Positions 13,748 through 47,332 of a stretch of DNA of 53,733 bases are shown piece after piece. The position numbers were made by a program, and so were the translations under genes. Within the stretch, counting starts at the first letter, position 1. The number at the start of each line of letters is the position of its first letter. Under the pieces are notes generated by a model that had not been told where the DNA came from, searched no databases, and saw only the letters and a program-made list of their open reading frames with translations. The DNA is from an uncultured Spirochaetaceae bacterium. GTDB lineage: Bacteria > Spirochaetota > Spirochaetia > Sphaerochaetales > Sphaerochaetaceae. The DNA is taken from the NCBI GenBank assembly GCA_964534915.1, contig CAZHQL010000001.1, positions 1 through 53,733 on the forward strand. The letters are read 5' to 3'.

Positions 13748-15238
13748 ATGGATAACAGCATGATTATTCCTATCGCGATATCGTTTGCTCTGTTTATTCT
13801 TTCGCTTCTGATTTTCTTTTCAGCGAGGGTCGCTGACAAGAAATCGAGGAGTCTTGCTAATGTCACTGCTCAGATCAAGAGCTTCAGGAACGAGGTCTCA
13901 GCAACAACTCAGCGCCTTTTAACCTCGAGCCAGGACTGTACGGATAACGTGATGTCACATATTGAGCAGGCCAGGACCATAGTCGATATCATCAGCACAA
14001 GCCTCGACAGGCTCTCTCAGCACCAGAAGGACCTGACGCAGCTTGAAGGAATCTGCGTGGACTATCAGAGGGCACTGGATAAGCTCAGAACTCAGACAGA
14101 GCAGGCTGAGAACAGGATTGCAATAGTACAGCAGGAAATAAGGAAAGCTGAGAGCGTATCAGAATTCGTAAAGGCCTTCCATGAGGAATCAGAGCTGCTG
14201 GTAAACCAGATGCAGGATCTGAAATCCGAATACGTGCGCCTGGTTACATCCACTCAGGAAGCACTCAAGCAGCAGGCAGCGCTTCAGAAGAGTGATAACA
14301 GCGAGGCACTGAGCCAGTTCTCATCTGCCATGGAGAGGCAGAAGGCACAGCTTGTGGAATTCATTCACGCAGCCAGGGCAGACTTTGAGAGAGAGTGCAG
14401 CGAACAGACGAAGATTGCATCCTCCCTTACTGAGCGCATTCTGGATAAGAGGGCAGAGCTGGATGATGACCTCAGGGCCCTTGAGTCATCCAGAATTGCC
14501 ATAAAGGAGGATCTCAAGGCCTTCTTTGATGACACGAAGGCTTCTCTTGAGGCTCTCAGGGCTGAGATGGCAGAGACTATTGAGAGCATGGAAAGGGATG
14601 CAGAGGATGAAAAGAGAGATCTTGAGAATAAGAGCGCAGAATCCTCAGAGAGCCTCAGCAAGGCCTATGATGCCCTTTCAAGGGATTATGAGAATAAGAA
14701 GGCCTCTCTTGAGATTCTCATTGAAGAGAAGCTCAATGCTTTTGATGAGAGAATTGCTGCCCGTGAAGAGAAGCTCAGGCAGGCACTTGATAAGGCTGCA
14801 CTTGTCTCTGAGGAAAAATCAGAAAAAGAAGCAGAGGATTTCAGAGAGCTTGAGAAGATGAAGGCAGAAGCAGAAACCCTTGCTGAGAAGACAAGGGAAG
14901 CAGATGCGCTCTCAGATACAGCTTCTCCTGATAATCAGTCATCAGATGCTGAGGATGCAGAAAAAGAAGAAAGCCTTGAAGCAGAGGATCTTAATAAAGA
15001 AGAGATTGAGGAGGGCAGAGAAGAAGAGACAGATGCTGCTCAGGAAGAAGAAGCTGAAGCCGGGGATCTCCTTGAAAGCGAGGCAGTCCTTTATGATGAA
15101 GATATAGAGAATGAGATAAGCATGGACGATGGCATGATTGATGCATCTGAGATAAGCATGGGCGAGAGCATAATCGAGGAATTTCCTGACATCTTCATCG
15201 GAGAAGAGGAGGAGATAGACCTTGGGGATGATGATTAG
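13748..15238 (+). CDS. Hypothetical membrane-anchored coiled-coil protein with a hyperacidic C-terminal tail
   Basis: 496 aa. One N-terminal hydrophobic helix (IIPIAISFALFILSLLIFF), about 350 aa of heptad-like E/K/Q/L-rich sequence, and a last ~110 aa dominated by D/E. I recognise no enzymatic motif. Confidence 0.6.
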   Translation: MDNSMIIPIAISFALFILSLLIFFSARVADKKSRSLANVTAQIKSFRNEVSATTQRLLTSSQDCTDNVMSHIEQARTIVDIISTSLDRLSQHQKDLTQLEGICVDYQRALDKLRTQTEQAENRIAIVQQEIRKAESVSEFVKAFHEESELLVNQMQDLKSEYVRLVTSTQEALKQQAALQKSDNSEALSQFSSAMERQKAQLVEFIHAARADFERECSEQTKIASSLTERILDKRAELDDDLRALESSRIAIKEDLKAFFDDTKASLEALRAEMAETIESMERDAEDEKRDLENKSAESSESLSKAYDALSRDYENKKASLEILIEEKLNAFDERIAAREEKLRQALDKAALVSEEKSEKEAEDFRELEKMKAEAETLAEKTREADALSDTASPDNQSSDAEDAEKEESLEAEDLNKEEIEEGREEETDAAQEEEAEAGDLLESEAVLYDEDIENEISMDDGMIDASEISMGESIIEEFPDIFIGEEEEIDLGDDD

Positions 15239-15920: not shown

Positions 15921-17828
15921 ATGAGCAAGATTATTGGAATTGACTTAGGTACTACGAACAGCTGTGTTGCTGTCATGGAAGGCAGTGAGCCAGTCGTCAT
16001 CGCCAACAGCGAGGGAGACAGGACCACACCCAGCGTAGTTGGATATAAAGGGAGCGACCGTCTTGTAGGAAAGCCTGCAAAGAACCAGATGGTTACAAAT
16101 CCGGAGAACACGGTTTACTCAATCAAGAGGTTCATGGGCCGCAAGTTCCATGAGGTAGGCGAAGAGATCAAGATGGTGCCATACAAGGTTACAAGCGGAG
16201 CCGGGGATGAGATCAAGGTTTCTGCAAATAATGAGCTGCTCTCTCCTCCTCAGATCAGCGCTGTAGTTCTTCAGAAGATGAAGAAGACTGCAGAGGATTA
16301 CCTTGGAGAGACTGTAACAGAGGCTGTTATCACAGTACCTGCATACTTTAACGATGCCCAGCGCCAGGCAACCAAGGATGCAGGGCGTATTGCAGGACTG
16401 GATGTTAAGCGAATTGTTAACGAGCCTACAGCTGCAGCACTGGCATACGGCTTTGGAAAGGATAAGAGCAAGGATGAGACCATCGCTGTATATGACCTTG
16501 GCGGCGGTACGTTCGATATCTCAATTCTTGAGCTTGGCGATGGAGTATTTGAGGTAAAGAGCACGAATGGAGATACTCACCTTGGAGGAGACAACTTCGA
16601 TCAGGTGATCATCGACTGGCTGGTTGCGGACTTCAAGGCTAAGAACGGAATAGATCTCTCGAGCGACAAAATGGCACTTCAGCGCCTGAAGGAAGCTGCA
16701 GAGCAGGCTAAGATCGTACTCTCATCCTCAACGACTACTACAATCAACCTTCCGTTCATTACAGCTAATGCAAGCGGACCACTTCACTTGCAGCTTGAGC
16801 TTACAAGAGCCAAGTTCGAGCAGATGATTGCTCCCCTTGTAGAAAGGACGAAGGGCCCATGCCTTAACGCACTTAAGGATGCAGGGCTATCTGCAAGCCA
16901 GATAGACGAGGTCATCCTGGTAGGAGGATCCTCAAGAATCCCATGCGTACAGGAAGCTGTAAAGCAGATCTTCGGGAAAGAGCCTCACAAGGGAGTGAAC
17001 CCGGATGAGGTAGTAGCAGTCGGAGCTGCCATCCAGGGCGGAATCCTCAGCGGAAATGTAAAGGATGTCCTCCTTCTCGATGTAACTCCGCTCTCACTTG
17101 GAATCGAGACTCTCGGAGGAGTTGCTACGAAGCTCATCGAGAGGAATACCACAATTCCTACCAAGAAGAGCCAGATCTTCAGCACTGCTGCAGATAACCA
17201 GACAGCAGTATCGATTCACGTCCTTCAGGGAGAAAGGGAGCTTGCAAGCCAGAACAGGACCCTTGGCACATTCGACCTCGTTGGAATTGCTCCAGCTCCG
17301 CGCGGAGTACCTCAGATTGAGGTTACATTCGATATCGATGCCAACGGAATCGTACATGTAAGTGCTAAGGACCTCGGAACAGGCAAGGAGCAGCAGATTG
17401 TAATTGAGTCTTCTTCCGGACTTTCAGAAGCAGAGATTGAGAAGATGGTCAAGGATGCTGAGGCACATGCTGCAGATGACAAGAAGACAAGGGAGACCAT
17501 AGAGGCCAGGAACACTGCAGAGTCCGTAGTCTACCAGACTGAGAAGGCACTCAAGGACTATGGGGATAAGGTCTCTGATGCTGAGAAAGGCACTATTGAG
17601 AGCGCTCTGAGTGAGCTTAAGAACACTCTTGGAAATCAGAGTGCTACAGCTGAGGAGCTCAAGAGCAGGACTGATGCAGTCCAGCAGGTAGCAATGACGC
17701 TGGGACAGAAGGTGTATGAAGCTGCCCAGGCTCAGCAGAATGCATCAGCAGGCCCGGGTCCGGAGAGCACAGCAGGAAGCAAGAATGACGATGGCTCTGT
17801 GGATGCAGACTTCGAAGAGGTTAAGTAA
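15921..17828 (+). CDS. dnaK: Chaperone DnaK (Hsp70)
   Basis: 635 aa. [24 protein letters not shown] and [11 protein letters not shown] signatures. Confidence 0.97.
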
Positions 17829-23511: not shown

Positions 23512-23826
23512 ATGGACGAGAAACTTACGAAGGCAACGATCATTGAGAATCTGCATAACAAACTTGGCCTTAATAGGACTGAAATCCATATGGTAATTGA
23601 CGAGCTCTTTGAGGAAATCAAGGACGGACTCAAGGATGACAGGGTTATCGAGCTCCGCGGGTTTGGAACGTTTGAGGTCCGCACGAGGAAGGGCCGCGAG
23701 AAGGCCAGAAATCCCAAGACAGGGGAACTTGTTGCAGTAGATAAGCATGGAGTCGCAATATTCCGTCCTGGAAAGGAGCTGAAGGAGTTCGTATGGAACA
23801 TCCGCACAGCTAAGGATCTTGGTTGA
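23512..23826 (+). CDS. HU/IHF-family DNA-binding protein (spirochaetal Hbb-like)
   Basis: 104 aa. ELRGFGTFEVRTRKGREKARNPKTGELVAVDKHGVAIFRPGKELK is the HU beta-arm. It lies immediately after rpsT, as hbb does in Borrelia. Confidence 0.88.
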   Translation: MDEKLTKATIIENLHNKLGLNRTEIHMVIDELFEEIKDGLKDDRVIELRGFGTFEVRTRKGREKARNPKTGELVAVDKHGVAIFRPGKELKEFVWNIRTAKDLG

Positions 23827-25496
23827 TTTCAGGAGATAAAGGCTTGAAAAATGAGAAGGAAAGGAGCCTCAGGACTGTGTGTTCTGAGGTTCTTGTATTA
23901 TTAACAGCCACATTCGTATTTTCCCTGGCATTCCCGGGCTTCACGCTTTCTGAGGGCCTCGGGTTCATATCATTTTTCGTACTGATCCCGGTATTCGCTG
24001 TAATCAGGAACACGAGCTGGAAGCTGATTGCCCCTTACGGCTTTTTCTTCGGCTTCATGTACTACATGTTCTTCTGTTACTGGCTCACGACATTCCATCC
24101 GCTTGCAATTCTGATAGTTCCCATAATAAAGGGCGCTGAGATGCTCATCCTGTTTCCTGCCCTGAAAGCAGCGGATGCGCTTTTTAAAAAGAAGGGGTAC
24201 ATCGTCCAGGCATTCATATGGGTTGCATATGCATACCTCTCACAGTCCTGGTTCGCAGGCTTTCCATATGGCACGATCTGCTACGCGCTCTATAAATACC
24301 TTCCTCTCATCCAGATTGCAGACATTACAGGAATATGGGCCATAGTATTGTTGCAGGTGCTTCCGCAGGCATACATCGGTGCCTATATAATGGACAGGAT
24401 AAATGGCACTGCAGACACAGTTAAGAAGTATGTAATGTCCAATCTGGCTGTAATCATAATTTATGCCATATTAGTAATCTCAACGCTTGTTTACGGCTTT
24501 GTAAAGGTAAATGAATGGAGCAATAAGGAGCCTGACCGCATCTGGCGTGTTGCAACCGTGCAGCATAATCACGACTCATGGAAGGGGGGCATCACTACAT
24601 ACAGAAGGAATTTCAATAACCTCAAGCGCTACACGCTGGAGGCTATAACGAAGGATCCGGATATCGTAGTATGGTCCGAGACAGCATTCGTTCCATCAAT
24701 TGACTGGAACCTGAGATTCGACTATGAGGGGAACCACGAAATGAGAGCTCTTGTAAAGGAGTTCGTAGACTTCGCAGAGGCCCTCCCTGTGCCTCTTCTC
24801 ACAGGAAATGCTGACGGGGCTGTCATAGATGAGAGTGCAGGCCCTGTCCTGGAAGATGGCACGCAGAACAGGAAGGATTATAACAGCGTAGTCCTGTTTG
24901 AGGACGGAGAGCTGAAGGATAAGTACCGCAAACAGCATTTAGTGCCATTTACCGAGCACTTTCCATACGAGAAGCAGCTTCCCTGGCTTTATAATCTCTT
25001 GCTTGCCAATGACTATAACTGGTGGGAAAAAGGAGAAGAGAGCATTGTCTTTGAATCTGATGGCATCAGATTCTCAACTCCGATCTGCTTTGAGGACGTA
25101 TTCGGATATCTTTCTGCAGATTTCGTAAGAAACGGAGCGGATCTTATCATCAACATGACCAATGACAACTGGTCGGGAACAGTCGTGGCAGAGAAACAGC
25201 ATGCTTACATGGCAGTTTTCCGCTCGATAGAGACGCGCAAGAGCATGGTAAGGGGAACAAACAGCGGCTATACCTGCATGATAACCCCCGACGGGCGCCT
25301 TCATGACCCGATGAGGCCTTTCTGGATGGGCTACCATATCTATGAGGTTCCTGTCTACGAAGGAGGTGAAAATACGTTCTACGTAGAACATACCGAGCTC
25401 TTTGCGTATATTGCAATATGGGTATCCATTGCAGCTCTGGCAGCAGGGTCTGCATGGAAGATATATCTTTCAATCAAGGGCAGAAAGAATGACTAA
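23823..25496 (+). CDS. lnt: Apolipoprotein N-acyltransferase
   Basis: Multi-TM N-terminal half plus a CN-hydrolase domain (VVWSETAF, KQHLVPFTEHFPY, TPICFEDVF). The start is either TTG 23823, which overlaps the HU stop, or TTG 23844, 9 nt after AGGAG. Confidence 0.88.
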   Translation: MISGDKGLKNEKERSLRTVCSEVLVLLTATFVFSLAFPGFTLSEGLGFISFFVLIPVFAVIRNTSWKLIAPYGFFFGFMYYMFFCYWLTTFHPLAILIVPIIKGAEMLILFPALKAADALFKKKGYIVQAFIWVAYAYLSQSWFAGFPYGTICYALYKYLPLIQIADITGIWAIVLLQVLPQAYIGAYIMDRINGTADTVKKYVMSNLAVIIIYAILVISTLVYGFVKVNEWSNKEPDRIWRVATVQHNHDSWKGGITTYRRNFNNLKRYTLEAITKDPDIVVWSETAFVPSIDWNLRFDYEGNHEMRALVKEFVDFAEALPVPLLTGNADGAVIDESAGPVLEDGTQNRKDYNSVVLFEDGELKDKYRKQHLVPFTEHFPYEKQLPWLYNLLLANDYNWWEKGEESIVFESDGIRFSTPICFEDVFGYLSADFVRNGADLIINMTNDNWSGTVVAEKQHAYMAVFRSIETRKSMVRGTNSGYTCMITPDGRLHDPMRPFWMGYHIYEVPVYEGGENTFYVEHTELFAYIAIWVSIAALAAGSAWKIYLSIKGRKND

Positions 25497-35633: not shown

Positions 35634-37151
35634 ATGAGTATTCTTTATGTGGATCTGGAAAGGAAAAGGATAAGCACAGATAAGGACAGGGATGAAAAAG
35701 GCTACCTTCTTCTGAAGGCCCTGACAGAAGAAAAGGAAAACTGCATAGCATTCTCAGCCCTTGGAAGCGATGCAATAAGATTCAAAGGGGCAAGTTCCTC
35801 TGTCTATGCTTTTTACTCTCCCTTGAGAAGGAAGGTTCACTATGGCCACACGAGCTCATCGTTTTCGTTCGTGCTCTACACTCTTGGCTACTCAGCGCTC
35901 GTAATAACAGGAAAGTCGGATGTCCTTTGCTATATATCCATCAGGGGAAATGCCATTGAAATAAGGGAATGTCCTGACCTGAAAGGCTCTTCCTATGATT
36001 TCATCAGGCGCAAGATAAAGGAAAAGGAGAGCGACATCGTGATTGCAACCGGGCCTGCAGCGGATAAGAACATTGAAATTGCAGCGCTGTATGATGAGTA
36101 CGGAGAACTTGGCAGGGCAGGCTTTGGCTTCGCATTCTCGCGCCTCAATCTCAAGGCCATAGCATTTCAGTCATTGATTCCCAGGAGAAGGGAAAGCGAG
36201 GAAGGAAGGAAATACAAGAAAGCGATAGAAAAATCATCATTTGCCAGGACTCTCAAGCGTGAGAGCACTACAAGCTGGATAAAGAGCGCAGAGAGCTGTG
36301 GCTTTCTTGCAATAGAGAACTTCACAAGACGCCATGACAGGAGAGCAGTTTTCTTAGATGGAACTCTTTTACAGGAGGAAGCCGGTGTTTACAGCATCTC
36401 CTGCAATGACTGTGCTGTCTCATGCAGGAGGATGCTTAAGGATGGAACACTGGCACCAGACCTGGCTGCAACACTTGCACTTGGCCCGATGCTGGGAATA
36501 TTTTCGTATGAGAAAATAACAGAGCTGAGGAACGCAGTATTCTCTGCAGGCCTTGAGAGCATTGAGGCATCTGCCATGCTGGCCTCTGCCCATCCTGGCT
36601 ATGAGGAGTGCCTTGAGAGAATCAGGATGTATAACGGAGAGAAATACGACTCATACAGAATCGGGGGCATCTCTCCTCTTTTTGACATCAGGGGAACAGG
36701 GGAGGCCGCTCTTTTCATGATTCTTGGAGATTCTGAGATTCCGTATTACTCACTCTTTGCTCCGATGCGGATTAAGAGCAACAGGATAAGTGCAATCCTT
36801 GCTCTCTTTGAGAGGATATACCGCTATGCACTCTCATCGCGCGGTCTTCCTGTGAAAGGCTCATACGCAGCCTATATTTCAAGGATTCCGAAAGCAGCAT
36901 ATCTGAGCGCGCCTCTCCTCCGCTCATGCCTTGAGCATATCACCATGTTCTCCCTTCCTGCTAAGACGCTTATAAAGGAAGGCCTTGAGATAATAAACGA
37001 ACTGGGAGAGGACGAAAATGCTATCCCGGATCATTTCATCTACACATCCTCATCAAGCGTTGAAGATACGACTGTAAAGCCTGCAAGGCTCTTAGAGTGC
37101 TACTATAAGGAAAAATCAAGGCTTGAGAGTAAGTACCTTGATACTCTTTAA
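35634..37151 (+). CDS. Aldehyde:ferredoxin oxidoreductase (AOR)-family protein, short and divergent
   Basis: 505 aa. The N-terminal domain aligns by eye with AOR (ILYVDL..., GYSALVITGKS, IATGPAADKNIEIAAL, GRAGFGFAFSRLNLKAIAF). The CxxCxxxC cluster motif is present (CNDCAVSC). Confidence 0.6.
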   Translation: MSILYVDLERKRISTDKDRDEKGYLLLKALTEEKENCIAFSALGSDAIRFKGASSSVYAFYSPLRRKVHYGHTSSSFSFVLYTLGYSALVITGKSDVLCYISIRGNAIEIRECPDLKGSSYDFIRRKIKEKESDIVIATGPAADKNIEIAALYDEYGELGRAGFGFAFSRLNLKAIAFQSLIPRRRESEEGRKYKKAIEKSSFARTLKRESTTSWIKSAESCGFLAIENFTRRHDRRAVFLDGTLLQEEAGVYSISCNDCAVSCRRMLKDGTLAPDLAATLALGPMLGIFSYEKITELRNAVFSAGLESIEASAMLASAHPGYEECLERIRMYNGEKYDSYRIGGISPLFDIRGTGEAALFMILGDSEIPYYSLFAPMRIKSNRISAILALFERIYRYALSSRGLPVKGSYAAYISRIPKAAYLSAPLLRSCLEHITMFSLPAKTLIKEGLEIINELGEDENAIPDHFIYTSSSSVEDTTVKPARLLECYYKEKSRLESKYLDTL

Positions 37152-37616
37152 GGAAGGAAAAGAAAGAAGTTCTATCCTGTTCTCATACAGCATTCCGATG
37201 CTCTTTCTTCCATCCCGTGGACGCGATGGACTTCCCGGATTGAAATATATTATTCCGCTATCCTCTTCAAGGCAGCCTATGTGAGTATGCCCCATTATGT
37301 AAATGTCGCCTTCCTTCAGCCCAAGCTGCTCAGGCTCATAGAAGCAGTCTCCATGCGTGATGACAACACGCCTTGAATTCCATTCGAAGGCTAACATCAG
37401 GGGAGGCCTTCTCATAAGTGTATATTCGCAGTATCTGTCAGAGTTTCCAAGAACAGTTCTGAAAGAGGTATTAGCTGCATCTATTTCCATTTTCGCAGTC
37501 GGACAGAAGTCCCCTGCTGAGATAATCTCATCAAGAAAGAGGCGCTCCTTGATTCCTGTTATCTTCTTGAAAGCCTCCTCATCCCCATGCAGATCTGAGC
37601 AAATCAGGTAGTTCAC
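37116..37616 (-). CDS. YfcE/MJ0936-type metallophosphoesterase
   Basis: 166 aa. LICSDLHGD, GDF, LGNSD, VITHGD and GHTHIG motifs. Its 3' end overlaps the convergent AOR-like gene by 36 nt. Confidence 0.85.
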   Translation of the reverse strand: MNYLICSDLHGDEEAFKKITGIKERLFLDEIISAGDFCPTAKMEIDAANTSFRTVLGNSDRYCEYTLMRRPPLMLAFEWNSRRVVITHGDCFYEPEQLGLKEGDIYIMGHTHIGCLEEDSGIIYFNPGSPSRPRDGRKSIGMLYENRIELLSFPSLKSIKVLTLKP

Positions 37617-37747
37617 AGAAATGAATTATACACCAGAAAAGGCTCCAGGAATAATTATTGGACATCAAGGTAATGATAGTTGACAGAGCCACCGGGAATA
37701 AGATTGAATTGAAGAGGGAAAAGAAAATTCAAATTAAAGGAGTTTTT

Positions 37748-38889
37748 ATGATTAAATCCTTACATTGTAATAAATTGATGGGGGGGCAGTCCTAATTCTC
37801 CTTCTTGCCTCTCTTCTTGTTGTATCGTGTAATCCATCTTCAGATGATCTGACTGACACAGACACACCAGATTATGAGATTGATGATGACAATGAAACCT
37901 GGCTCATTTACACTGCCGAGGGGCTTACACGCTGGAATATAGTAGCACAAACAGACCAAACTCTCAGTGCCAGGCTTAAGGCAGATATTACGCTTGTTAC
38001 TGATGAATATAACAACTGGTTGCCGGTAGGCACTGAGGATGCTCCATACACAGGCTCATTTGACGGCGCGGGGTACTCCATAACGGGCATTAAGGCATCT
38101 TCAAGCTCAGATTATGTTGGCATGTTCGGCTATATAGGTTCTGATGGAACAGTAAAGGATCTTGGACTTATAAAGGCTGACATATCTGGTGATGGTTATG
38201 TTGGTGCCATCGCTGGATACAACGAAGGAACCATCATAGCCTGCTATAGCGAGGATAGCAAGGTAGAAGGTGATTACTATGTCGGCGGCATCGCTGGATA
38301 TAACTATAACTATAGCTATAATTTCACTGGCGATACCATTATCAATGATAAAGGAAAAGTTCTTTACAGTTATTCAGATGCTGATGTTTCTGGAAGTCAA
38401 TATGTCGGCGGCATTGTCGGATATAACACCGATTATGCAACTGTTGCTGCATGTTATTTCACAGGAAGCCTTGATGGAACATCGTGTGTTGGCGGGATAG
38501 TTGGATTCAACTATGGTGTGTATTTAGACAGTGCGCCTGGCAATGTTATTGATGTCGGCTATGTTTATGCCTGCTATTCTGAAGCTGCAATTGAAAACAG
38601 CAGTGGAAAAAATTACATAGGAGGGATAGTTGGAAGAAATCACATTAATCATGGCCGCGTATACAATTCCTATTACACAACAGTCGCTATACCTTATGCC
38701 TGTGGCGCCCTTTCTGGTAGTGCAGGTACCAGCGGCACAGATGAAACCTGCTCCCAAGTTGGTTCATATGCAGATGCTGTAAGCGATATGAATCAGTGTT
38801 TATCTGATAACGGATTCACTGATTACATGTATGCTGACTCTTCAGTGGTAAGCCTGGAAAAAGTCGCGAATTCCGAACTTTCTGAATAA
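37748..38889 (+). CDS. GLUG-repeat surface lipoprotein, reading frame interrupted at a poly-G tract (phase-variable or frameshifted)
   Basis: RBS AAAGGAG (37736-37742) and ATG 37748 open MIKSLHCNKLMGGQS*, with a stop at 37793. The frame entered within the G7 run reads GGAVLILLLASLLVVSCNPSSDD... and stays open to 38889, with no ATG/GTG/TTG until 38020, where the track ORF starts. There are six [YC][VI]G[GA]I[AV]G[YFR]N repeats. Confidence 0.75.
37780..37786 (+). repeat. G7 homopolymer at the start-codon / signal-peptide junction
   Basis: Read directly as ...TTGATGGGGGGGCAGTCC.... G8 or G5 would join ATG 37748/37778 to the lipoprotein signal peptide frame. Confidence 0.9.
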
Positions 38890-42257: not shown

Positions 42258-42415
42258 TTATAGGAAGATGTGAAAACAAAGGGCAATATCAGGCTTCCAT
42301 GAGAAATTTCTGTCATTTTCAGAAGTTTTTGGTATTTGCAGAAGAGAGCAATTTTCTGCATCGAAAGTGACATTTTTTTCTTTTCAAACAGGAAAAAGTG
42401 ACGTACAATCGGGGT

Positions 42416-42925
42416 ATGGCAAAGTTGGTTTATCTGATTTTGCTGCTTCTTTTCATTATCATACCGGTATTCGGTTCATCGTTTTACATCGGCTTTGATC
42501 TAGCATCAGTCGATTCGTTCTTTGCAGATGGAAACAGAGTGAGTTTTGATCTCTCGTACCATTTCGCGGATTTCAGGATCTCCCTTCCCATTTCGTATTC
42601 ATTCTGCCTCGATGATGATATCTCAGCACTTGATGTTGCGCTGAGAGTGGATGTGTATCCATTTACGCGCCTGAATCTCTTCTTCGGGGTGGATGCCGTG
42701 CGTTATGTGCGCTTCTTCGGCCTTGGGAGCCCGGAGGAGAGGAATCTGATCCTTACATCAATCCGCATGGGATATACCTTTGATCTTCCCTATTGCTATA
42801 TCGAGCCGAGAATAGTCGCAGTGGATCCTGCGAGGATAAACGAGACTGAGACCGCGCTTTTAGATGACCACTTTCCCTTCTACTACGATTTCTATGTCGA
42901 GCTCTTAGTCGGAGTTCGCTTTTAG
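42416..42925 (+). CDS. Hypothetical exported protein, small beta-barrel outer-membrane-protein candidate
   Basis: The track starts at GTG 42398. ATG 42416 gives MAKLVYLILLLLFIIIPVFGSS (signal peptide). The mature ~150 aa has alternating hydrophobic/aromatic beta-like segments and ends in ...YVELLVGVRF, with a terminal Phe. Confidence 0.5.
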   Translation: MAKLVYLILLLLFIIIPVFGSSFYIGFDLASVDSFFADGNRVSFDLSYHFADFRISLPISYSFCLDDDISALDVALRVDVYPFTRLNLFFGVDAVRYVRFFGLGSPEERNLILTSIRMGYTFDLPYCYIEPRIVAVDPARINETETALLDDHFPFYYDFYVELLVGVRF

Positions 42926-43845: not shown

Positions 43846-45063
43846 ATGAAAGACTTCAGAGACGAATTAATCAAGAACTTTGTTTATTACACTACATTCG
43901 ATACCATGAGCAATCCCGGCCTGCTGGGAAAGAAAAGGCCTACCACGGAGGGCCAGACAGTTCTGCTTGAAGAACTTGTAAGAGAGCTTAAGGAATTAGG
44001 CATTGAGGCGTCGCTTGACCCGGCAAGTGTCGCTTGTGGCTTCATTAAGGGGAATACGCCGGGAGAGGCTAAGGCCTTCATGGCACATGTGGATACTGCT
44101 GATGATGTAATGGGGGATGGCGTAAAGGCCATAGTCCACGACTATGAGGGAGGCGATATCAGCCTGCCATCAGGCATTGTGCTGAAAGAAGAGGATAACC
44201 CGGGCCTGAAGAAGTACAAGGGAAGTAAGATTATAACAAGTGATGGCACAACGCTCCTTGGAAGCGATGACAAGGCAGGAATTGCCATTATAATGAGCGC
44301 TGCCAGATACCTTGTAGAGCATCCTGAGATCAAGCATCCGGATATCGAGATCTATTTCACGCCCGATGAGGAAACGGGTTCTGGAATGTATGCATTCCCC
44401 TATGAGAGAGTTAAAGCCGCATGCTGCTATACAGTGGATGGCTCAGCAGAAGGAAAGATTGAGACTGAGTGCTTTAACGCAGCGACTCTCAGCGTAACAG
44501 TATCAGGGGTCTCCATCCATCTTGGCTCTGCCCGCGGGGTAATGGTAAACGCACTGACAATCCTTTCTCAGATTGCATCAACGCTTCCTCAGGCAGAGAG
44601 TCCTGAGGCAACCGATGGCCGCTATGGCTATTACTGTGCGCAGAATATCAAGGGCACTGCAACGGAAGCAGGGATGCAGATATTCATAAGGGACCACGAT
44701 GAGGATGCGTTCAAGTTCCGTATCGAAGCTGTCAAGAAGCTCGTTGATGCAATTGCATTCATCTATAAGGGAAAGGCATGCGTCGATGTGCACATAAGCT
44801 ATTACAATATGGCTAATGGCAATAAGAAGGGGGGTGAGTACGTTGATGCGAGATTCAAAGCGTGTGAGAGTCTTGGCATTGACTCTTCCAGAGAGATAAT
44901 CCGCGGAGGCACTGACGGGGCCCGCATCGCAGACAAGCTGAAAATAAGCTCCCCGAATATCTTCACGGGAGGGCATAACCTGCATTCGCTCTCTGAATGG
45001 CTGAGCGTTGAGGCCATGAATAAGAGCGCGAATCTGGTCCTTGCCCTGATGGAGAGCAGATGA
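43846..45063 (+). CDS. pepT: Peptidase T (tripeptide aminopeptidase, M20B)
   Basis: 405 aa. Full-length collinearity with PepT (FVYYTTFDTMS, AHVDTADD, LLGSDDKAGIA, FTPDEETG, RGGTDGA, FTGGHNLHS). Confidence 0.93.
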   Translation: MKDFRDELIKNFVYYTTFDTMSNPGLLGKKRPTTEGQTVLLEELVRELKELGIEASLDPASVACGFIKGNTPGEAKAFMAHVDTADDVMGDGVKAIVHDYEGGDISLPSGIVLKEEDNPGLKKYKGSKIITSDGTTLLGSDDKAGIAIIMSAARYLVEHPEIKHPDIEIYFTPDEETGSGMYAFPYERVKAACCYTVDGSAEGKIETECFNAATLSVTVSGVSIHLGSARGVMVNALTILSQIASTLPQAESPEATDGRYGYYCAQNIKGTATEAGMQIFIRDHDEDAFKFRIEAVKKLVDAIAFIYKGKACVDVHISYYNMANGNKKGGEYVDARFKACESLGIDSSREIIRGGTDGARIADKLKISSPNIFTGGHNLHSLSEWLSVEAMNKSANLVLALMESR

Positions 45064-45968
45064 TAAGAAAGCTCATCCTTGTTTTCTTCCTCATCTCTCT
45101 TGCTCTTCCTTTATTTGCCTCCCTTTCCTTTTTTCCTGAGATAAGCGAGAGTGACAAAACCCTTCTTACGCGTTTCTTTGAAGATGCTGTAGCGGGAAGA
45201 AAGGATGTGGGGATGGAAATAACATCCTTTGTCAAGGAAGATGGCTATATGCGCCTGAGCTTTTCAATTGAGGGAGAAAGGAGGGAAATATCTGCATCGG
45301 ATTATGATGAGCTTGAAGAGTTCATCGCCAATGCACTCTCTCTTGAGAGCCTTTTATACCTTGATGGGAGCACGCTCTTCTATGTAAGTGATAACATTAT
45401 TGCAAGTGAGGATGAGTACAGAACAGGAAGCTATGTTGAGGCATATGACAGGGATGGAAGGAAAAGGGCACTTTTAGAAGTAACAGATAATGAAGGAGGC
45501 ATAAACCTCTACTCAGCAGTATACAAAAAGGATCTGAAGGCAGGACTTCTTTTAAAAAAGGGTCCTCTTTTCTCACTTAACGTGAGAGCCCTGTCGGATA
45601 TATACTTCAATAACTTTGCATTCGCAGCAGATCTTCTCTATCTGCCATTATTCAAATACTTCAATCCATCGCTCTCGCTTTATGCAGCATCAAAAGGGGG
45701 ATCCTTCTCGTACTACGGGGGCCTCGGCGGAGAAGTGCGCCTTGCCCTGGAGCGCCTGATTAGATCCGGCTTTACGCTTATTGAGGATGCTTCAATAATT
45801 GCATCGGCAACGATTTACCTCGGATATGATAATGGATTTTCATGGGGCTCCGGGTTCTCTGTTGCATATGAGCACCATATATCCAGCCGCTATTACTGGC
45901 GCCTTGGCTATGAGACGAGTACAATAGTTCAAAACGGCATTATGCTGTCATTCGGAGTGCTGATTTGA
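45060..45968 (+). CDS. Hypothetical exported protein (beta-rich C-terminal half)
   Basis: 302 aa. Signal peptide MIRKLILVFFLISLALPLFAS. The C-terminal ~140 aa are rich in alternating aromatic/Gly/Ser strands. ATGA overlap with the pepT stop. Confidence 0.5.
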   Translation: MIRKLILVFFLISLALPLFASLSFFPEISESDKTLLTRFFEDAVAGRKDVGMEITSFVKEDGYMRLSFSIEGERREISASDYDELEEFIANALSLESLLYLDGSTLFYVSDNIIASEDEYRTGSYVEAYDRDGRKRALLEVTDNEGGINLYSAVYKKDLKAGLLLKKGPLFSLNVRALSDIYFNNFAFAADLLYLPLFKYFNPSLSLYAASKGGSFSYYGGLGGEVRLALERLIRSGFTLIEDASIIASATIYLGYDNGFSWGSGFSVAYEHHISSRYYWRLGYETSTIVQNGIMLSFGVLI

Positions 45969-47332
45969 GAAATTTTCTTGTTATCCTCTCTTTACTGCTT
46001 CTTGTCTCCTGTCTGAGCTTTGAAGAGTCATCCCTTCCTTCATGGACAACAAACCCCCGCGTACTGGCAGGGCGCATTGCATACAGCTCGGAAGGAAGCG
46101 GAGAGAGCGAGGAAGAGGCCTTCTCATCAGCGCTTGAGAATTTTCTTGCAGAACTCAGCCTTGACCTTGGATGGGATGCCTATGGCGCGTATTTCAGGGA
46201 ATTAAGCACTACAGAGCGTATTACTGCCCTCGATGGCTATATACAGAACAGATATATGCGTGAGTACCGCGGAGGGCGCTATCTCAGCTACATTCTTTTC
46301 AACTTAAGTGAAGAGCGCTTTTTGACACTCAGGAGCGCTGAGATGACACTTTTGAATGAGGCAGAAGATCTCGTGAGAACAGCTCTGGAGATGGCGCGAA
46401 GAAGCTATATGTCCAACAGCGATGTGGATGCACTTTCATACGCGCTTGAGGCACTTGAGCTCTCGCTGGGCTTTGAATTTGCCGATGAGAGCATAAGAAG
46501 CGACAGGATACTCTCTGAATACGTAATGTACTACCTTGAGCCCCTTGAGATCAGGGTTGAGCAGAACGGAGAGGGGATGGATGCAAGGGTTTTTCTCAGG
46601 CGCAACAGGGGCCTTTTGAGCCCGGCTGTCCTCTCAGCTGACTTAAGCGGCTACTACATTATCAGAAACACAGAGGGAGAGCACTCAGTCGAAGAGATAG
46701 GCATGATAATCCAGAATGGCGTCTATGATTATGTGAATACGAATCCCTATGCTTTAAGGCATGGAGAAATGACGATATCATTTGACCTGGATGAGGAAGT
46801 TCTTTCATCAATCAAGAGCAAGGCTCCAGAGGGATTCCTGGATGACTTCTATCAGATGCTTGATGAGAAGTCTGTTACCTATGAGTATGACCAGAGGGAC
46901 AATGAAAAGGCCTATCCGTTTGATGTCGTTATCTCAGAATATGATGCATCTGGCAGGGAACTTGAGAGCACATATGCACTCGATGCATTCAACTCATCCC
47001 TTTCAGGCGCTTCTATCAGCATAGCTGCAGAAAAAGGGCAGGGAGAGGATGATGAGATCATCATAATGAACTATCTGGCAAAGGACAGTGCCAGAGAACT
47101 TCTCGTGCTGGTACGGCTCGGAGTCTATGACTCAGTCGCAATCTCAGGCGATGCTTACATCGTAAATGTCCGCTCTGCTCTCGAAATCATGGATCTGGAT
47201 ACATTTGATGTGACATACAGTGACGATACTGTCTCTTCCGTGGGCTATGGAAACACATTTGATGAGGCAATGCGCGATGCCTTCATTCGCGCAGGAATCC
47301 TTTTAGCTGACATGTTCATTATAGACCTCTGA
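45965..47332 (+). CDS. Hypothetical lipoprotein
   Basis: 455 aa. The TTG start overlaps the upstream stop (TTGA). Lipobox LLLLVSC|L. A GxGx[ST]x[DE]EAxxxA segment lies near each end. Confidence 0.55.
   Translation: MRNFLVILSLLLLVSCLSFEESSLPSWTTNPRVLAGRIAYSSEGSGESEEEAFSSALENFLAELSLDLGWDAYGAYFRELSTTERITALDGYIQNRYMREYRGGRYLSYILFNLSEERFLTLRSAEMTLLNEAEDLVRTALEMARRSYMSNSDVDALSYALEALELSLGFEFADESIRSDRILSEYVMYYLEPLEIRVEQNGEGMDARVFLRRNRGLLSPAVLSADLSGYYIIRNTEGEHSVEEIGMIIQNGVYDYVNTNPYALRHGEMTISFDLDEEVLSSIKSKAPEGFLDDFYQMLDEKSVTYEYDQRDNEKAYPFDVVISEYDASGRELESTYALDAFNSSLSGASISIAAEKGQGEDDEIIIMNYLAKDSARELLVLVRLGVYDSVAISGDAYIVNVRSALEIMDLDTFDVTYSDDTVSSVGYGNTFDEAMRDAFIRAGILLADMFIIDL

What the first reader, a model, noticed from the sequence alone, without database searches (positions are those of the whole stretch)
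37736..38889. Poly-G tract splits RBS/ATG from the signal peptide of a GLUG-repeat surface lipoprotein: candidate phase-variable locus
What the sequence shows:
- A good RBS (AAAGGAG, 37736-37742) and ATG 37748 open MIKSLHCNKLMGGQS, which stops at TAA 37793-37795.
- A G7 run sits at 37780-37786.
- The frame entered within the run reads GGAVLILLLASLLVVSC|NPSSDD, a textbook h-region plus lipobox Cys.
- That frame stays open for 1.1 kb to 38889, and I verified codon by codon that it has no ATG, GTG or TTG before 38020.
- One extra G (G8), or two fewer (G5), would yield MIKSLHCNKLMGGAVLILLLASLLVVSC..., a complete SPase II signal.

The mature protein carries six [YC][VI]G[GA]I[AV]G[YFR]N repeats of the GLUG type, as found in surface adhesins and protease-associated proteins.

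Homopolymeric G tracts are an established ON/OFF switch in treponemes and other host-associated bacteria. This copy would be in the OFF state. The alternatives are a homopolymer sequencing error or a fresh pseudogene.
Basis: partly seen in the sequence, partly recalled or inferred. Interest (0 to 1): 0.7.

Follow-up and report, generated by a model that had tools for sequence, protein, structure and literature searches.

The report
Poly-G switch in spirochaete lipoprotein gene
A run of seven G's sits inside the export signal of a surface-type lipoprotein gene in a gut spirochaete and knocks it out of frame; related genes carry the same run at lengths from 6 to 11, some in frame and some not, so this is most likely a classic slippage ON/OFF switch caught in the OFF state.

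Summary
RBS AAAGGAG, ATG 37748 and a G7 run (37780-37786) open a 15-codon frame that stops at 37793-95. The frame one base back (reached by adding one G) is open from 37774 to 38889 and has no start codon before TTG 38020. G5, G8 or G11 would restore a lipoprotein signal (lipobox Cys28) fused to a GLUG (PF07581) beta-helix protein.

No orthologue or read data exist here, so variation at this locus itself is untested. The closest relatives, from ENA and Logan metagenome assemblies, carry a G run at the same point of their lipoprotein signal peptides:
- G6 and G9 are in frame.
- G10, G10, G11 and G11 are out of frame, as is a G9+AA copy that needs G10.
- In the MEKIRR-type copies the flanks are almost invariant and the downstream ORFs are intact; one G11 copy sits in a divergent third cassette.

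The rest of the window shows no homopolymer frameshifts. No frameshift-stimulating RNA structure follows the run.

Verdict: a slipped-strand, translational phase-variable locus, assembled OFF (about 0.6). Rivals are a consensus or assembly miscall, a fixed recent pseudogene, and recoding.

- The host is an Ornithospirochaeta-like gut spirochaete, not a treponeme.
- There are five strict repeats, not six.
- G5 gives one Gly fewer than G8.

This is a new member of a known kind, of moderate interest.

The parts
37736..37742 (+). Shine-Dalgarno-like AAAGGAG, 5 nt upstream of the start codon
   Evidence: Read directly from the sequence.
37748..37795 (+). Short frame as assembled (OFF state): ATG 37748, MIKSLHCNKLMGGQS, TAA 37793-37795. 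It encodes the n-region of the signal peptide and then runs out of frame.
   Evidence: One search shows that G7 terminates after 15 codons.
37780..37786 (+). G7 homopolymer, the proposed slipped-strand switch. The first G belongs to the in-frame ATG at 37778. G5, G8 and G11 are ON; every other length from G4 to G12 is OFF.
   Evidence: It is the only G/C run of at least 7 in 53.7 kb. Relatives carry G6-G11 at the same place.
37786..37830 (+). h-region and lipobox in the frame one base back from the ATG frame (reached by adding one G): AVLILLLASLLVVSC. The Cys codon TGT is at 37828-37830.
   Evidence: Translation. The PROSITE-type lipobox rule is met in the repaired protein. The h-region and lipobox are identical in P0002.
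37828..38889 (+). Mature GLUG-repeat beta-helix protein (352 aa plus stop), intact ORF.
   Evidence: Pfam Glug E=1.7e-11. The AlphaFold2 model has pLDDT 86.7 and pTM 0.88. Best PDB match is 3N6Z, E=5.6e-8, TM 0.63/0.65.
38197..38640 (+). Region holding the five strict GLUG core motifs: YVGAIAGYN 38197-38223, YVGGIAGYN 38278-38304, YVGGIVGYN 38401-38427, CVGGIVGFN 38485-38511, YIGGIVGRN 38614-38640.
   Evidence: Regex on the repaired protein, mapped back to window coordinates.
38020..38889 (+). The 289-aa ORF that gene callers report (TTG start; P0001). It is a truncation artefact of the OFF state. It lacks the signal peptide and the first 64 residues of the mature protein; residues from about 11 onward are confidently modelled.
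   Evidence: P0001, 100% identity, 76% coverage; 10-residue block means of pLDDT 89-98 for mature residues 11-64; residues 1-10 are low, block mean 49. No SD-like sequence precedes TTG 38020.

Best explanation
The locus is a single gene for a secreted, lipid-anchored GLUG beta-helix protein. It belongs to an uncultured gut spirochaete close to Candidatus Ornithospirochaeta.

A poly-G tract lies at the boundary between the charged n-region and the hydrophobic h-region of the signal peptide, 33 nt into the coding sequence. It sets the reading frame.

Proposed mechanism (inferred): slipped-strand mispairing during replication changes the tract length by one G at a time.
- At G8 (also G5 or G11), translation from ATG 37748 yields MIKSLHCNKLMGGAVLILLLASLLVVSC|N.... 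This product would be exported, lipidated at Cys28 and displayed.
- At G7, as assembled, ribosomes stop after 15 codons at TAA 37793 and no protein is made.

The tract encodes Gly-Gly in a part of the signal peptide that tolerates extra or missing glycines. Changes of three G's are therefore harmless, and the tract can persist.

Shown here:
- the anatomy and the frame arithmetic;
- the lipobox and the GLUG beta-helix identity;
- the intact downstream ORF;
- length polymorphism of the homologous tract, with ON and OFF states, in related genes.

Inferred:
- that this particular tract switches within populations;
- that the protein is surface exposed;
- that switching serves to vary a surface antigen or adhesin.
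For: 1. Anatomy and frame states.

2. Lipobox rule met. An Lnt gene lies in the same window at 23823-25496.

3. GLUG and fold: Pfam. The high-confidence beta-helix model best matches 3N6Z and the beta-helix domain of Gram-positive IgA1 proteases.

4. Relatives carry the same device.
- The MEKIRRSILM(G)nK-type cassette has G9 in frame in L001-L005, G6 in frame in L011, G10 out of frame in L007 and L010, and G11 out of frame in L012.
- L008 has G9 plus an extra AA, which is out of frame and needs G10.
- The 43 nt upstream and 66 nt downstream differ by only 0-3 bases.
- A third, divergent cassette (L014, MMKTFVTE-G11-NKYTVF..TTGC) is also out of frame and needs G9 or G12.

5. In every OFF relative with an intact cassette, the downstream ORF is intact. 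Gene callers start at internal codons there (P0008, P0010, P0014, P0111, P0122), exactly as for the window's P0001. P0005 is also called from an internal start, but its contig (L006) lacks the RBS, start codon and G run.

6. In the relatives' lineage, the neighbouring lipoprotein gene has a G5/G6/G8 polymorphism that splits or restores it. Short G tracts like the window's G7 are therefore mutable there.

7. The only other protein with the window-type signal peptide, P0002, reads ..QGGAILILLLASLLVVSC in frame, which is the ON configuration.

8. GGG is a minor Gly codon here, 16% in ten other genes of the window. Two GGG codons flanked by G's are not a codon-usage by-product.

9. The window is not riddled with homopolymer errors. 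17 of 26 runs of at least 6 lie inside unbroken long ORFs, and the rest are intergenic or at natural gene ends. About 25 neighbouring ORFs were scanned against Pfam; nearly all of those with a match show full-length domain coverage (the AOR-like gene is the exception), and four had no match.

10. Precedent: poly-G tracts of 7-11 vary within Treponema pallidum isolates and control outer-membrane protein genes (PMC7864442). Genic G(9-20) tracts switch pilC in Neisseria (PMC5953494).
Against: - No direct evidence exists for length variation at this locus. There is no orthologue in 5.8 billion proteins. The window genome was not found in the genome or metagenome collections. No reads are available.
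- G7 is at the low end of tracts usually regarded as hypermutable.
- A single G7 in 53.7 kb is within chance expectation.
- The relatives are only 33-38% identical in the mature part (tblastn; 32-41% by BLASTP), and their taxon is undetermined. The tract could be convergent rather than inherited.
- Differences in consensus G length between metagenome assemblies could partly reflect assembly or sequencing noise, or fixed strain differences, rather than switching.
- I picked the OFF relatives because of their truncated N-termini, so the ON:OFF ratio is biased.
- The DNA of P0002 could not be retrieved.
- No convincing promoter or terminator was found.
Confidence: 0.6

Rival explanations
1. Consensus or assembly artefact. 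The organism really carries G8 (gene ON), and G7 is a homopolymer miscall or the arbitrary consensus of mixed reads.
For: - A one-base homopolymer indel is the commonest assembly error.
- The gene is otherwise perfect.
- P0002, which shares the signal peptide, is in frame.
- The window appears to be a whole 53,733-bp contig of a metagenome-derived genome.
Against: - None of the other 25 homopolymers of at least 6, including T8, A7 and two T7, is linked to a frame break. The neighbouring genes scanned show no split or frameshifted domains.
- Relatives assembled independently show both longer and shorter tracts, and a G5/G6/G8 series in a neighbouring gene. That pattern is hard to ascribe to error.
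- If the reads are mixed, that is itself phase variation.
Confidence: 0.17
2. Fixed, recent pseudogene. A one-off G deletion inactivated the gene in this lineage, and it is not switching at any useful rate.
For: - G7 is short for a contingency tract.
- Nothing shows reversibility here.
- The gene has atypical composition, with GC3 0.36 against 0.49-0.57 in neighbours, as dispensable accessory genes often do.
- Relatives include locked or broken copies: a 68-bp deletion of RBS, ATG and tract in L006, and a rearranged L013.
Against: - 370 codons downstream remain open and give a confident fold, so any inactivation is very recent.
- The lesion lies exactly in the one tract that relatives vary.
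- The minor GGG codons are maintained.
Confidence: 0.15
3. Recoding. The protein is made from the G7 template by -1 ribosomal frameshifting on G GGG GGG, or by RNA polymerase slippage on the G run. G7 would then be a functional, low-level ON state.
For: - In the ATG frame, G GGG GGG is formally an X XXY YYZ heptamer, and the shift required is -1.
- Homopolymer transcriptional slippage is known in bacteria (own knowledge).
Against: - No stimulatory structure follows the run. The 103 nt from 37778 fold no better than shuffles (z = +0.85; 162 of 200 shuffles fold at least as well).
- Relatives are in frame at G6 and G9 and need no recoding. Their OFF copies are offset by either +1 or +2, which a fixed recoding signal would not tolerate.
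- G runs are poor slippage substrates compared with A or T runs of at least 9 (own knowledge).
Confidence: 0.05

Closest known systems
Neisseria pilC, with a genic poly-G tract as translational ON/OFF switch (Jonsson et al. 1991, cited in PMC5953494)
   Same: - A homopolymeric G tract near the 5' end of the coding sequence of an exported surface-associated protein.
- Single-G changes move the frame in and out.
- The downstream ORF is kept intact.
- PMC5953494 lists pilC as 'G (9-20), genic'.
- From my own knowledge, the pilC tract lies in the signal-peptide-coding region. I could not verify this here, because the paper is not held.
   Different: - pilC tracts are longer, 9-20 against 7 here and 6-11 in relatives.
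- The organism is a proteobacterial pathogen.
- The product is a pilus tip or assembly protein, not a lipoprotein and not a GLUG beta-helix.
Treponema pallidum poly-G tracts (tprE/G/J, tprL, tp0126 and others)
   Same: Spirochaete poly-G tracts of 7-11 that vary within isolates and govern expression of envelope protein genes (PMC7864442).
   Different: - The characterised T. pallidum tracts act mainly in promoters, through transcription and -35/-10 spacing. The tract here lies inside the ORF and acts through the reading frame.
- The host here is an Ornithospirochaeta-like gut commensal, not Treponema.
- The regulated family (GLUG) is unrelated to Tpr.
Repeat tracts in signal-peptide-coding regions of Neisseria opa (CTCTT pentamers) and Helicobacter pylori oipA/hopZ (CT dinucleotides)
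   Same: The switch is placed inside the signal-peptide-coding region. In-frame length changes only alter a tolerant part of the leader, and out-of-frame changes abolish the protein. This is own knowledge. Opa appears as a genic CTTCT repeat in PMC5953494.
   Different: - Those are multi-base repeats, not a homopolymer.
- The products are outer-membrane beta-barrels, not lipoproteins.
GLUG-domain beta-helix proteins: PDB 3N6Z (Bacteroides ovatus BACOVA_03286) and the beta-helix domain of Gram-positive IgA1 metalloproteases (6XJA, 7UVK)
   Same: - Pfam Glug repeats.
- Predicted right-handed beta-helix superposing on 3N6Z (TM 0.63/0.65, E=5.6e-8) and on the IgA1 protease beta-helix. In S. pneumoniae that helix gates substrate access (PMC7695701).
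   Different: - No M26 catalytic region, no HExxH motif and no other Pfam domain. It is a stand-alone helix on a lipid anchor, not a protease.
- No phase variation is reported for GLUG proteins in the searched literature.

Membership tests
Simple-sequence-repeat (homopolymer) translational phase-variable contingency locus | A repeat tract inside the 5' coding region whose length decides whether the start codon is in frame with the main ORF | tested here: met
   G7 at 37780-37786. G5, G8 and G11 are in frame; G4, G6, G7, G9, G10 and G12 terminate early.
Simple-sequence-repeat (homopolymer) translational phase-variable contingency locus | Tract length differs between cells, isolates or samples at the same locus while the flanks stay the same | not testable with these tools
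   For the window's gene there is no orthologue, second assembly or read set. For the homologous tract in the closest relatives the feature is met: G6, G9, G10 and G11 with 0-3 flank mismatches, and G11 in a third cassette.
Simple-sequence-repeat (homopolymer) translational phase-variable contingency locus | The ORF downstream of the tract is otherwise intact in OFF copies (reversible state, not decay) | tested here: met
   370 open codons, a Pfam hit and a confident model. OFF relatives with an intact cassette (L007, L008, L010, L012, L014) keep ORFs giving 394-483-aa calls from internal starts.
Simple-sequence-repeat (homopolymer) translational phase-variable contingency locus | Measured reversible switching and matching loss or gain of the protein | not testable with these tools
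   This needs cultures or samples, fragment-length or UMI amplicon analysis, and immunoblot or proteomics.
Bacterial lipoprotein (Lgt / signal peptidase II substrate) | Positively charged n-region, uncharged h-region and a lipobox [LVI..][..][AGS]C with Cys at position 15-35 (PROSITE PS51257-type rule) | tested here: met
   The repaired protein has K3 and K9, h-region AVLILLLASLL, and lipobox L-V-V-S-C with Cys28. SignalP and LipoP were not available.
Bacterial lipoprotein (Lgt / signal peptidase II substrate) | Lipoprotein maturation machinery present in the genome | tested here: inconclusive
   An Lnt-like gene (LNT_N plus CN_hydrolase) lies at 23823-25496.
GLUG-motif (PF07581) beta-helix proteins | Pfam Glug match above the gathering threshold, with repeated units | tested here: met
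   E=1.7e-11, 44.2 bits against 20.5, four stretches. Five strict core motifs.
GLUG-motif (PF07581) beta-helix proteins | Right-handed beta-helix fold like the solved GLUG proteins | tested here: met
   AF2 pLDDT 86.7 and pTM 0.88. Foldseek top hit 3N6Z, E=5.6e-8, TM 0.63/0.65, followed by the IgA1 protease beta-helix domains.
M26 IgA1-specific metalloprotease | Catalytic metalloprotease region with an HExxH zinc site | tested here: not met
   There is no HExxH in the 380-aa repaired protein and no Pfam hit other than Glug at E<=1. Only the beta-helix part aligns structurally, with TM 0.13-0.15 normalised to the proteases.
Programmed -1 ribosomal frameshift site | Slippery heptamer X XXY YYZ in the zero frame | tested here: met
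   G GGG GGG at 37780-37786 in the ATG frame. The shift needed is -1.
Programmed -1 ribosomal frameshift site | Stimulatory RNA structure a few nt downstream, and conservation of the frameshift requirement in homologues | tested here: not met
   The fold of 37778-37880 has z = +0.85 against shuffles. Homologues are in frame at G6 and G9, and their OFF copies are offset by +1 or +2.

The most novel reading that the evidence does not exclude
The poly-G is part of a portable 5' switch cassette (upstream region, RBS, lipoprotein signal peptide and G tract). A clade of uncultured gut spirochaetes places this cassette in front of a mosaic, recombining family of GLUG beta-helix lipoproteins.

At least three sequence-divergent versions exist:
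- the window / P0002 type;
- the MEKIRRSILM(G)nK type;
- the MMKTFVTE(G)nNK type.

The MEKIRR type sits at several genomic sites. Mature parts are exchanged between paralogues: P0122 is identical to P0009 over residues 2-94 and 98.7% identical to P0007 over the rest.

Neighbouring lipoprotein genes carry their own variable G tracts.

Taken together, this would be a lineage-wide system combining phase variation and antigenic variation in commensal gut spirochaetes. It would be comparable in logic to Neisseria opa or mycoplasma variable lipoproteins, and it has not been described so far.
Probability: 0.4. Interest if true: 0.6.

Novelty: new member of a known kind. Interest (0 to 1): 0.45.

Why it matters
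Homopolymer switches in surface-protein genes are a standard device of host-adapted pathogens such as Neisseria, Campylobacter, Helicobacter and Treponema pallidum. They are hardly documented in commensal gut spirochaetes known only from metagenomes.

If confirmed:
- An Ornithospirochaeta-like lineage and its relatives would be shown to vary a family of GLUG beta-helix lipoproteins stochastically. That points to strong, fluctuating selection on these proteins, for example from host antibodies, phages or adhesion niches.
- The GLUG helix, whose function outside IgA1 proteases is unknown, would be marked as a surface-interaction module.

There is also a practical annotation point. Gene callers systematically report truncated, signal-less proteins for the OFF copies. 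P0001 here, and P0008, P0010, P0014, P0111 and P0122 in relatives, are examples; the deletion copy P0005 is truncated the same way.

Tried and rejected
Searches that found nothing useful:
- Orthologues of the window gene, to compare tract lengths. There is no close homologue besides the window's own 289-aa call. Exact look-ups of P0001 and P0002 found no contig.
- The genome-contig scan returned only a distant GLUG gene in a MAG labelled 'uncultured Gammaproteobacteria bacterium' (L009), and neither the window genome nor P0002.
- Two JGI metagenome scans found nothing. One used a degenerate pattern for G5+...LILLLASLLVVSC. The other used the MEKIRR cassette with a variable gap.
- A word-index search with the 44-aa N-terminal alignment found no candidate.
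- The exhaustive representative search found only P0002.

Taxon and habitat of the relatives:
- Cluster look-ups of ten neighbouring proteins gave no names.
- Accession strings are in no held paper.
- No window ORF other than the GLUG gene has a match in the fetched loci.

Synteny between the window and L008, both of which have a Hydrolase_4 gene downstream, is rejected. The two proteins are only 25% identical.

Other negatives:
- The -1 frameshifting reading was tested and not supported.
- The simple scans gave no significant promoter or terminator: 7 promoter-like sites against 4.7±2.4 expected, and 0 terminators.
- NCBIfam gave no hit.
- A literature search for GLUG together with phase-variable returned nothing.
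- The Jonsson 1991 pilC paper is not held.
Full report
**Observation**

- AAAGGAG (37736-42) lies 5 nt before ATG 37748.
- The frame reads MIKSLHCNKLMGGQS and stops at TAA 37793-95.
- A G7 run occupies 37780-86. Its first G is the last base of an in-frame ATG at 37778.
- The frame one base back from the ATG frame (reached by adding one G) opens after TAA 37771-73 and runs to TAA 38887-89. It begins ..GGAVLILLLASLLVVSC|NPSSDD.
- Its first 82 codons hold no ATG, GTG or TTG, so ORF finders start at TTG 38020.

Simulating tract lengths shows that G5, G8 and G11 give a full-length product of 379-381 aa. All other lengths from 4 to 12 stop within 14-29 codons.

The G8 product satisfies a PROSITE PS51257-type lipobox rule: K3, an uncharged h-region, L-V-V-S-C, and Cys28.

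Pfam Glug (PF07581) is hit at E=1.7e-11, 44.2 bits against a threshold of 20.5.

Two small corrections apply. The strict motif occurs five times rather than six. G5 yields MGAV, not MGGAV.

**Is it more than chance?**

A G/C run of at least 7 is not in itself improbable. A first-order Markov model expects 3.2±1.8 in this window and a mononucleotide shuffle expects 4.3±2.0, against one observed.

The non-random aspects are these:
- It is the only such run.
- It lies precisely between a good RBS/ATG and a signal-peptide core.
- It is built from the minor Gly codon GGG, which makes up 16% of Gly codons in ten other genes of the window.

**Host and context**

The window's DnaK (15921-17828) is 88-90% identical to proteins that include DnaK of Candidatus Ornithospirochaeta stercorigallinarum. 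That genus belongs to the Spirochaetota and was named in a chicken-gut metagenome study (PMC8035907, listed). The host is therefore a gut spirochaete of or near that genus, not a treponeme.

The gene stands alone:
- It is divergent from a Metallophos_2 gene (37116-37616, minus strand).
- It is followed by genes for Hydrolase_4, BrkB-like and LigT-like proteins.
- Its GC3 of 0.36 is well below that of its neighbours at 0.49-0.57.
- The simple scans give no significant promoter or terminator.
- An Lnt-like gene lies at 23823-25496.

**What the protein is**

An AlphaFold2 model of the mature part (window 37828-38886, with an alignment of 82 sequences) is confident: pLDDT 86.7, pTM 0.88. It consists of short strands in the three-per-turn rhythm of a beta-helix.

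Foldseek against the PDB gives these matches:
- 3N6Z, Bacteroides ovatus BACOVA_03286, deposited as a putative IgA1 protease: E=5.6e-8, TM 0.63/0.65.
- The beta-helix domains of the Gemella and S. pneumoniae IgA1 metalloproteases.

In the pneumococcal enzyme that helix gates substrate access, and catalysis resides elsewhere (PMC7695701).

The window protein has no HExxH motif and no other Pfam domain. It is a stand-alone helix on a lipid anchor. The most likely role is a binding or adhesin-like surface module, but that function is inferred.

The 289-aa protein that gene callers report (P0001) lacks the leader and the first 64 mature residues; from about residue 11 these are modelled at block-mean pLDDT 89-98. 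P0001 is therefore an artefact of the frameshift.

**Comparative evidence**

No orthologue exists in the 5.8-billion-protein collection.

The best hit, P0002 (NCBI, 649 aa, 41-48% identical), begins MIKPLLSKIAQGGAILILLLASLLVVSC. Its h-region and lipobox are identical to the window's, and it is in frame. It is the only other protein with this leader among 1.84 billion representatives. Its DNA could not be retrieved.

The next relatives are 33-38% identical by tblastn of the window ORF against the loci (32-41% by BLASTP) and come from ENA and Logan metagenome assemblies. They begin MEKIRRSILMGGGKTLLLGF..ATGC. Their DNA reads ..CTTATG(G)nTAAGACC.., so the G run sits at the same n/h boundary, again directly after an in-frame ATG.

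G-run states in these contigs:

| Loci | G run | State |
|---|---|---|
| L001-L005 | G9 | in frame |
| L011 | G6 | in frame, one Gly fewer |
| L007, L010 | G10 | out of frame |
| L012 | G11 | out of frame |
| L008 | G9 plus an extra AA | out of frame, needs G10 |

The 43 nt before and the 66 nt after the run differ by only 0-3 bases (L008 aside, because of its AA insertion).

A third, divergent leader (L014: MMKTFVTE-G11-NKYTVFLTLLLALLCIALVTTGC) is also out of frame and needs G9 or G12.

In each OFF contig with an intact cassette the downstream ORF is intact, and the gene caller began at an internal codon (P0008, P0010, P0014, P0111, P0122), the same artefact as in the window.

One relative, P0103, has FGK where the others have GGGK. 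This was seen at protein level only, but it suggests the tract is not needed for export.

In this lineage the lipoprotein gene just upstream has its own run, CCAATG(G)nCGACG:
- G6 in L002, where the gene is intact at 894 aa.
- G5 in L003, where it is split.
- G8 in L007, where it is split.

Short G tracts such as G7 are therefore demonstrably unstable there.

**Caveats on the comparative evidence**
- I selected the OFF examples by their truncated N-termini, so the proportions mean nothing.
- Some contigs may derive from the same runs.
- Differences between assembly consensus sequences are not the same as switching within a clone.
- The relatives' taxon could not be determined.

**Rivals**

Assembly or consensus error:
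- The window is otherwise clean. Of 26 homopolymers of at least 6, 17 lie deep inside unbroken ORFs. The others are intergenic or at natural gene boundaries such as PtsI/Der and CinA/tRNA_edit.
- About 25 neighbouring ORFs were scanned against Pfam. Nearly all of those with a match show full-length domain coverage (the AOR-like gene is the exception), and four had no match.
- A miscall at the single most slippery site cannot be excluded without reads. Mixed reads would in fact be phase variation.

Fixed pseudogene:
- The intact 370-codon ORF and the placement of the lesion in the family's variable tract argue for a very recent, and probably reversible, change.
- Locked copies do exist among relatives. 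L006 has lost RBS, ATG and tract through a 68-bp deletion. L013 is rearranged at a repeated Big_2 segment.

Recoding:
- G GGG GGG is formally a -1 slippery heptamer.
- The downstream RNA folds no better than shuffles (z = +0.85).
- Homologues are simply in frame when ON.

**Mechanism proposed**

Slipped-strand mispairing at the G tract during replication toggles the frame. The ON state gives an exported, Cys28-lipidated beta-helix protein. The OFF state gives a 15-residue peptide.

Placing the tract in the Gly-tolerant n/h junction of the leader makes ±3 changes neutral. This is seen as GG against GGG in relatives, and it would let the tract persist.

The anatomy, the frame logic, the protein identity and the polymorphism in homologues are shown here. 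Switching at this locus, surface exposure and the selective agent are inferred.

**Comparison with known systems**

The architecture is the classic translational contingency locus.
- Closest parallel: a G tract in the 5' coding part of an exported protein, as in Neisseria pilC. PMC5953494 lists it as genic G9-20. Its location in the signal-peptide-coding region is from my own knowledge.
- Second parallel: repeats inside the leader-coding region of opa, oipA and hopZ (own knowledge).
- In spirochaetes: poly-G tracts of 7-11 vary within T. pallidum isolates. The characterised ones act in promoters (PMC7864442).
- No paper in the library links GLUG proteins to phase variation.

I therefore class this as a new member of a known kind.

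**The broader, more novel reading**

The leader-plus-tract may form a portable cassette in front of a recombining GLUG lipoprotein family.
- The MEKIRR cassette lies at several genomic sites: next to a DDE transposase in L001 and L006, after the 894-aa lipoprotein gene in L002, L003 and L007, and elsewhere in L008, L010 and L013.
- Different GLUG alleles occupy the same site. P0009 and P0008 are 48% identical.
- P0122 is a clean mosaic. Residues 2-94 are identical to P0009, and the remaining 371 residues are 98.7% identical to P0007.

**Verdict**
- Confidence in the phase-variable reading is about 0.6.
- Interest is moderate, at 0.45.

Noticed in passing
L002 2653-2720, L003 2654-2720, L007 385-450: The 894-aa lipoprotein gene just upstream of the relatives' GLUG gene (MKRVAILVSIIAFVIVFFSC|SNE, no Pfam hit) carries an internal run CCAATG(G)nCGACG. 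It is G6 and intact in L002, G5 and split into 291+618 aa in L003, and G8 and split in L007. This is a second variable G tract in that lineage.
   Followed up: partly
L006 about 2740-2760, compared with L001 4960-5040: One relative has lost 68 bp covering the RBS, the start codon and the whole poly-G. This gives a locked-OFF copy with an otherwise intact gene (P0005).
   Followed up: partly
L010 3001-4398 (P0122), compared with P0009 and P0007: This is a mosaic GLUG gene. Residues 2-94 are identical to P0009, and the remaining 371 residues are 98.7% identical to P0007 but only 54% to P0009. That indicates recombination between paralogues. In addition, different GLUG alleles (P0009 and P0008, 48% identical) sit behind the same upstream gene in L002 and L007.
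   Followed up: partly
L001 3010-4587 and L006 618-2195: A DDE_Tnp_1 transposase gene lies immediately upstream of one copy of the GLUG cassette.
   Followed up: no
L013 2630-3060: The poly-G is in frame (G9), but the lipobox Cys is lost and the frame changes at a duplicated TCCAGCCAGACAATGCGAC segment of the Big_2 repeats. This is either a rearranged gene or a repeat-induced misassembly.
   Followed up: no
window 37748-38889: The GLUG gene has an atypical composition. Its GC is 0.43 and GC3 0.36, against GC3 of 0.49-0.57 in dnaK, the hydrolase gene and the brkB-like gene. This suggests an accessory or fast-evolving gene.
   Followed up: no
window 37774-38019: The 82 in-frame codons of the downstream ORF's frame contain no ATG, GTG or TTG at all. 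The OFF state therefore has no nearby internal restart. Whether this exceeds chance was not tested.
   Followed up: no
window 35634-37151: The aldehyde:ferredoxin-oxidoreductase-like ORF (505 aa) matches AFOR_N but only positions 4-145 of the 385-position AFOR_C profile. It may be a divergent or shortened family member.
   Followed up: no
window 13748-15238, 42398-42925, 45060-45968, 45965-47332: Four sizeable ORFs (496, 175, 302 and 455 aa) have no Pfam match at E<=1e-4.
   Followed up: no
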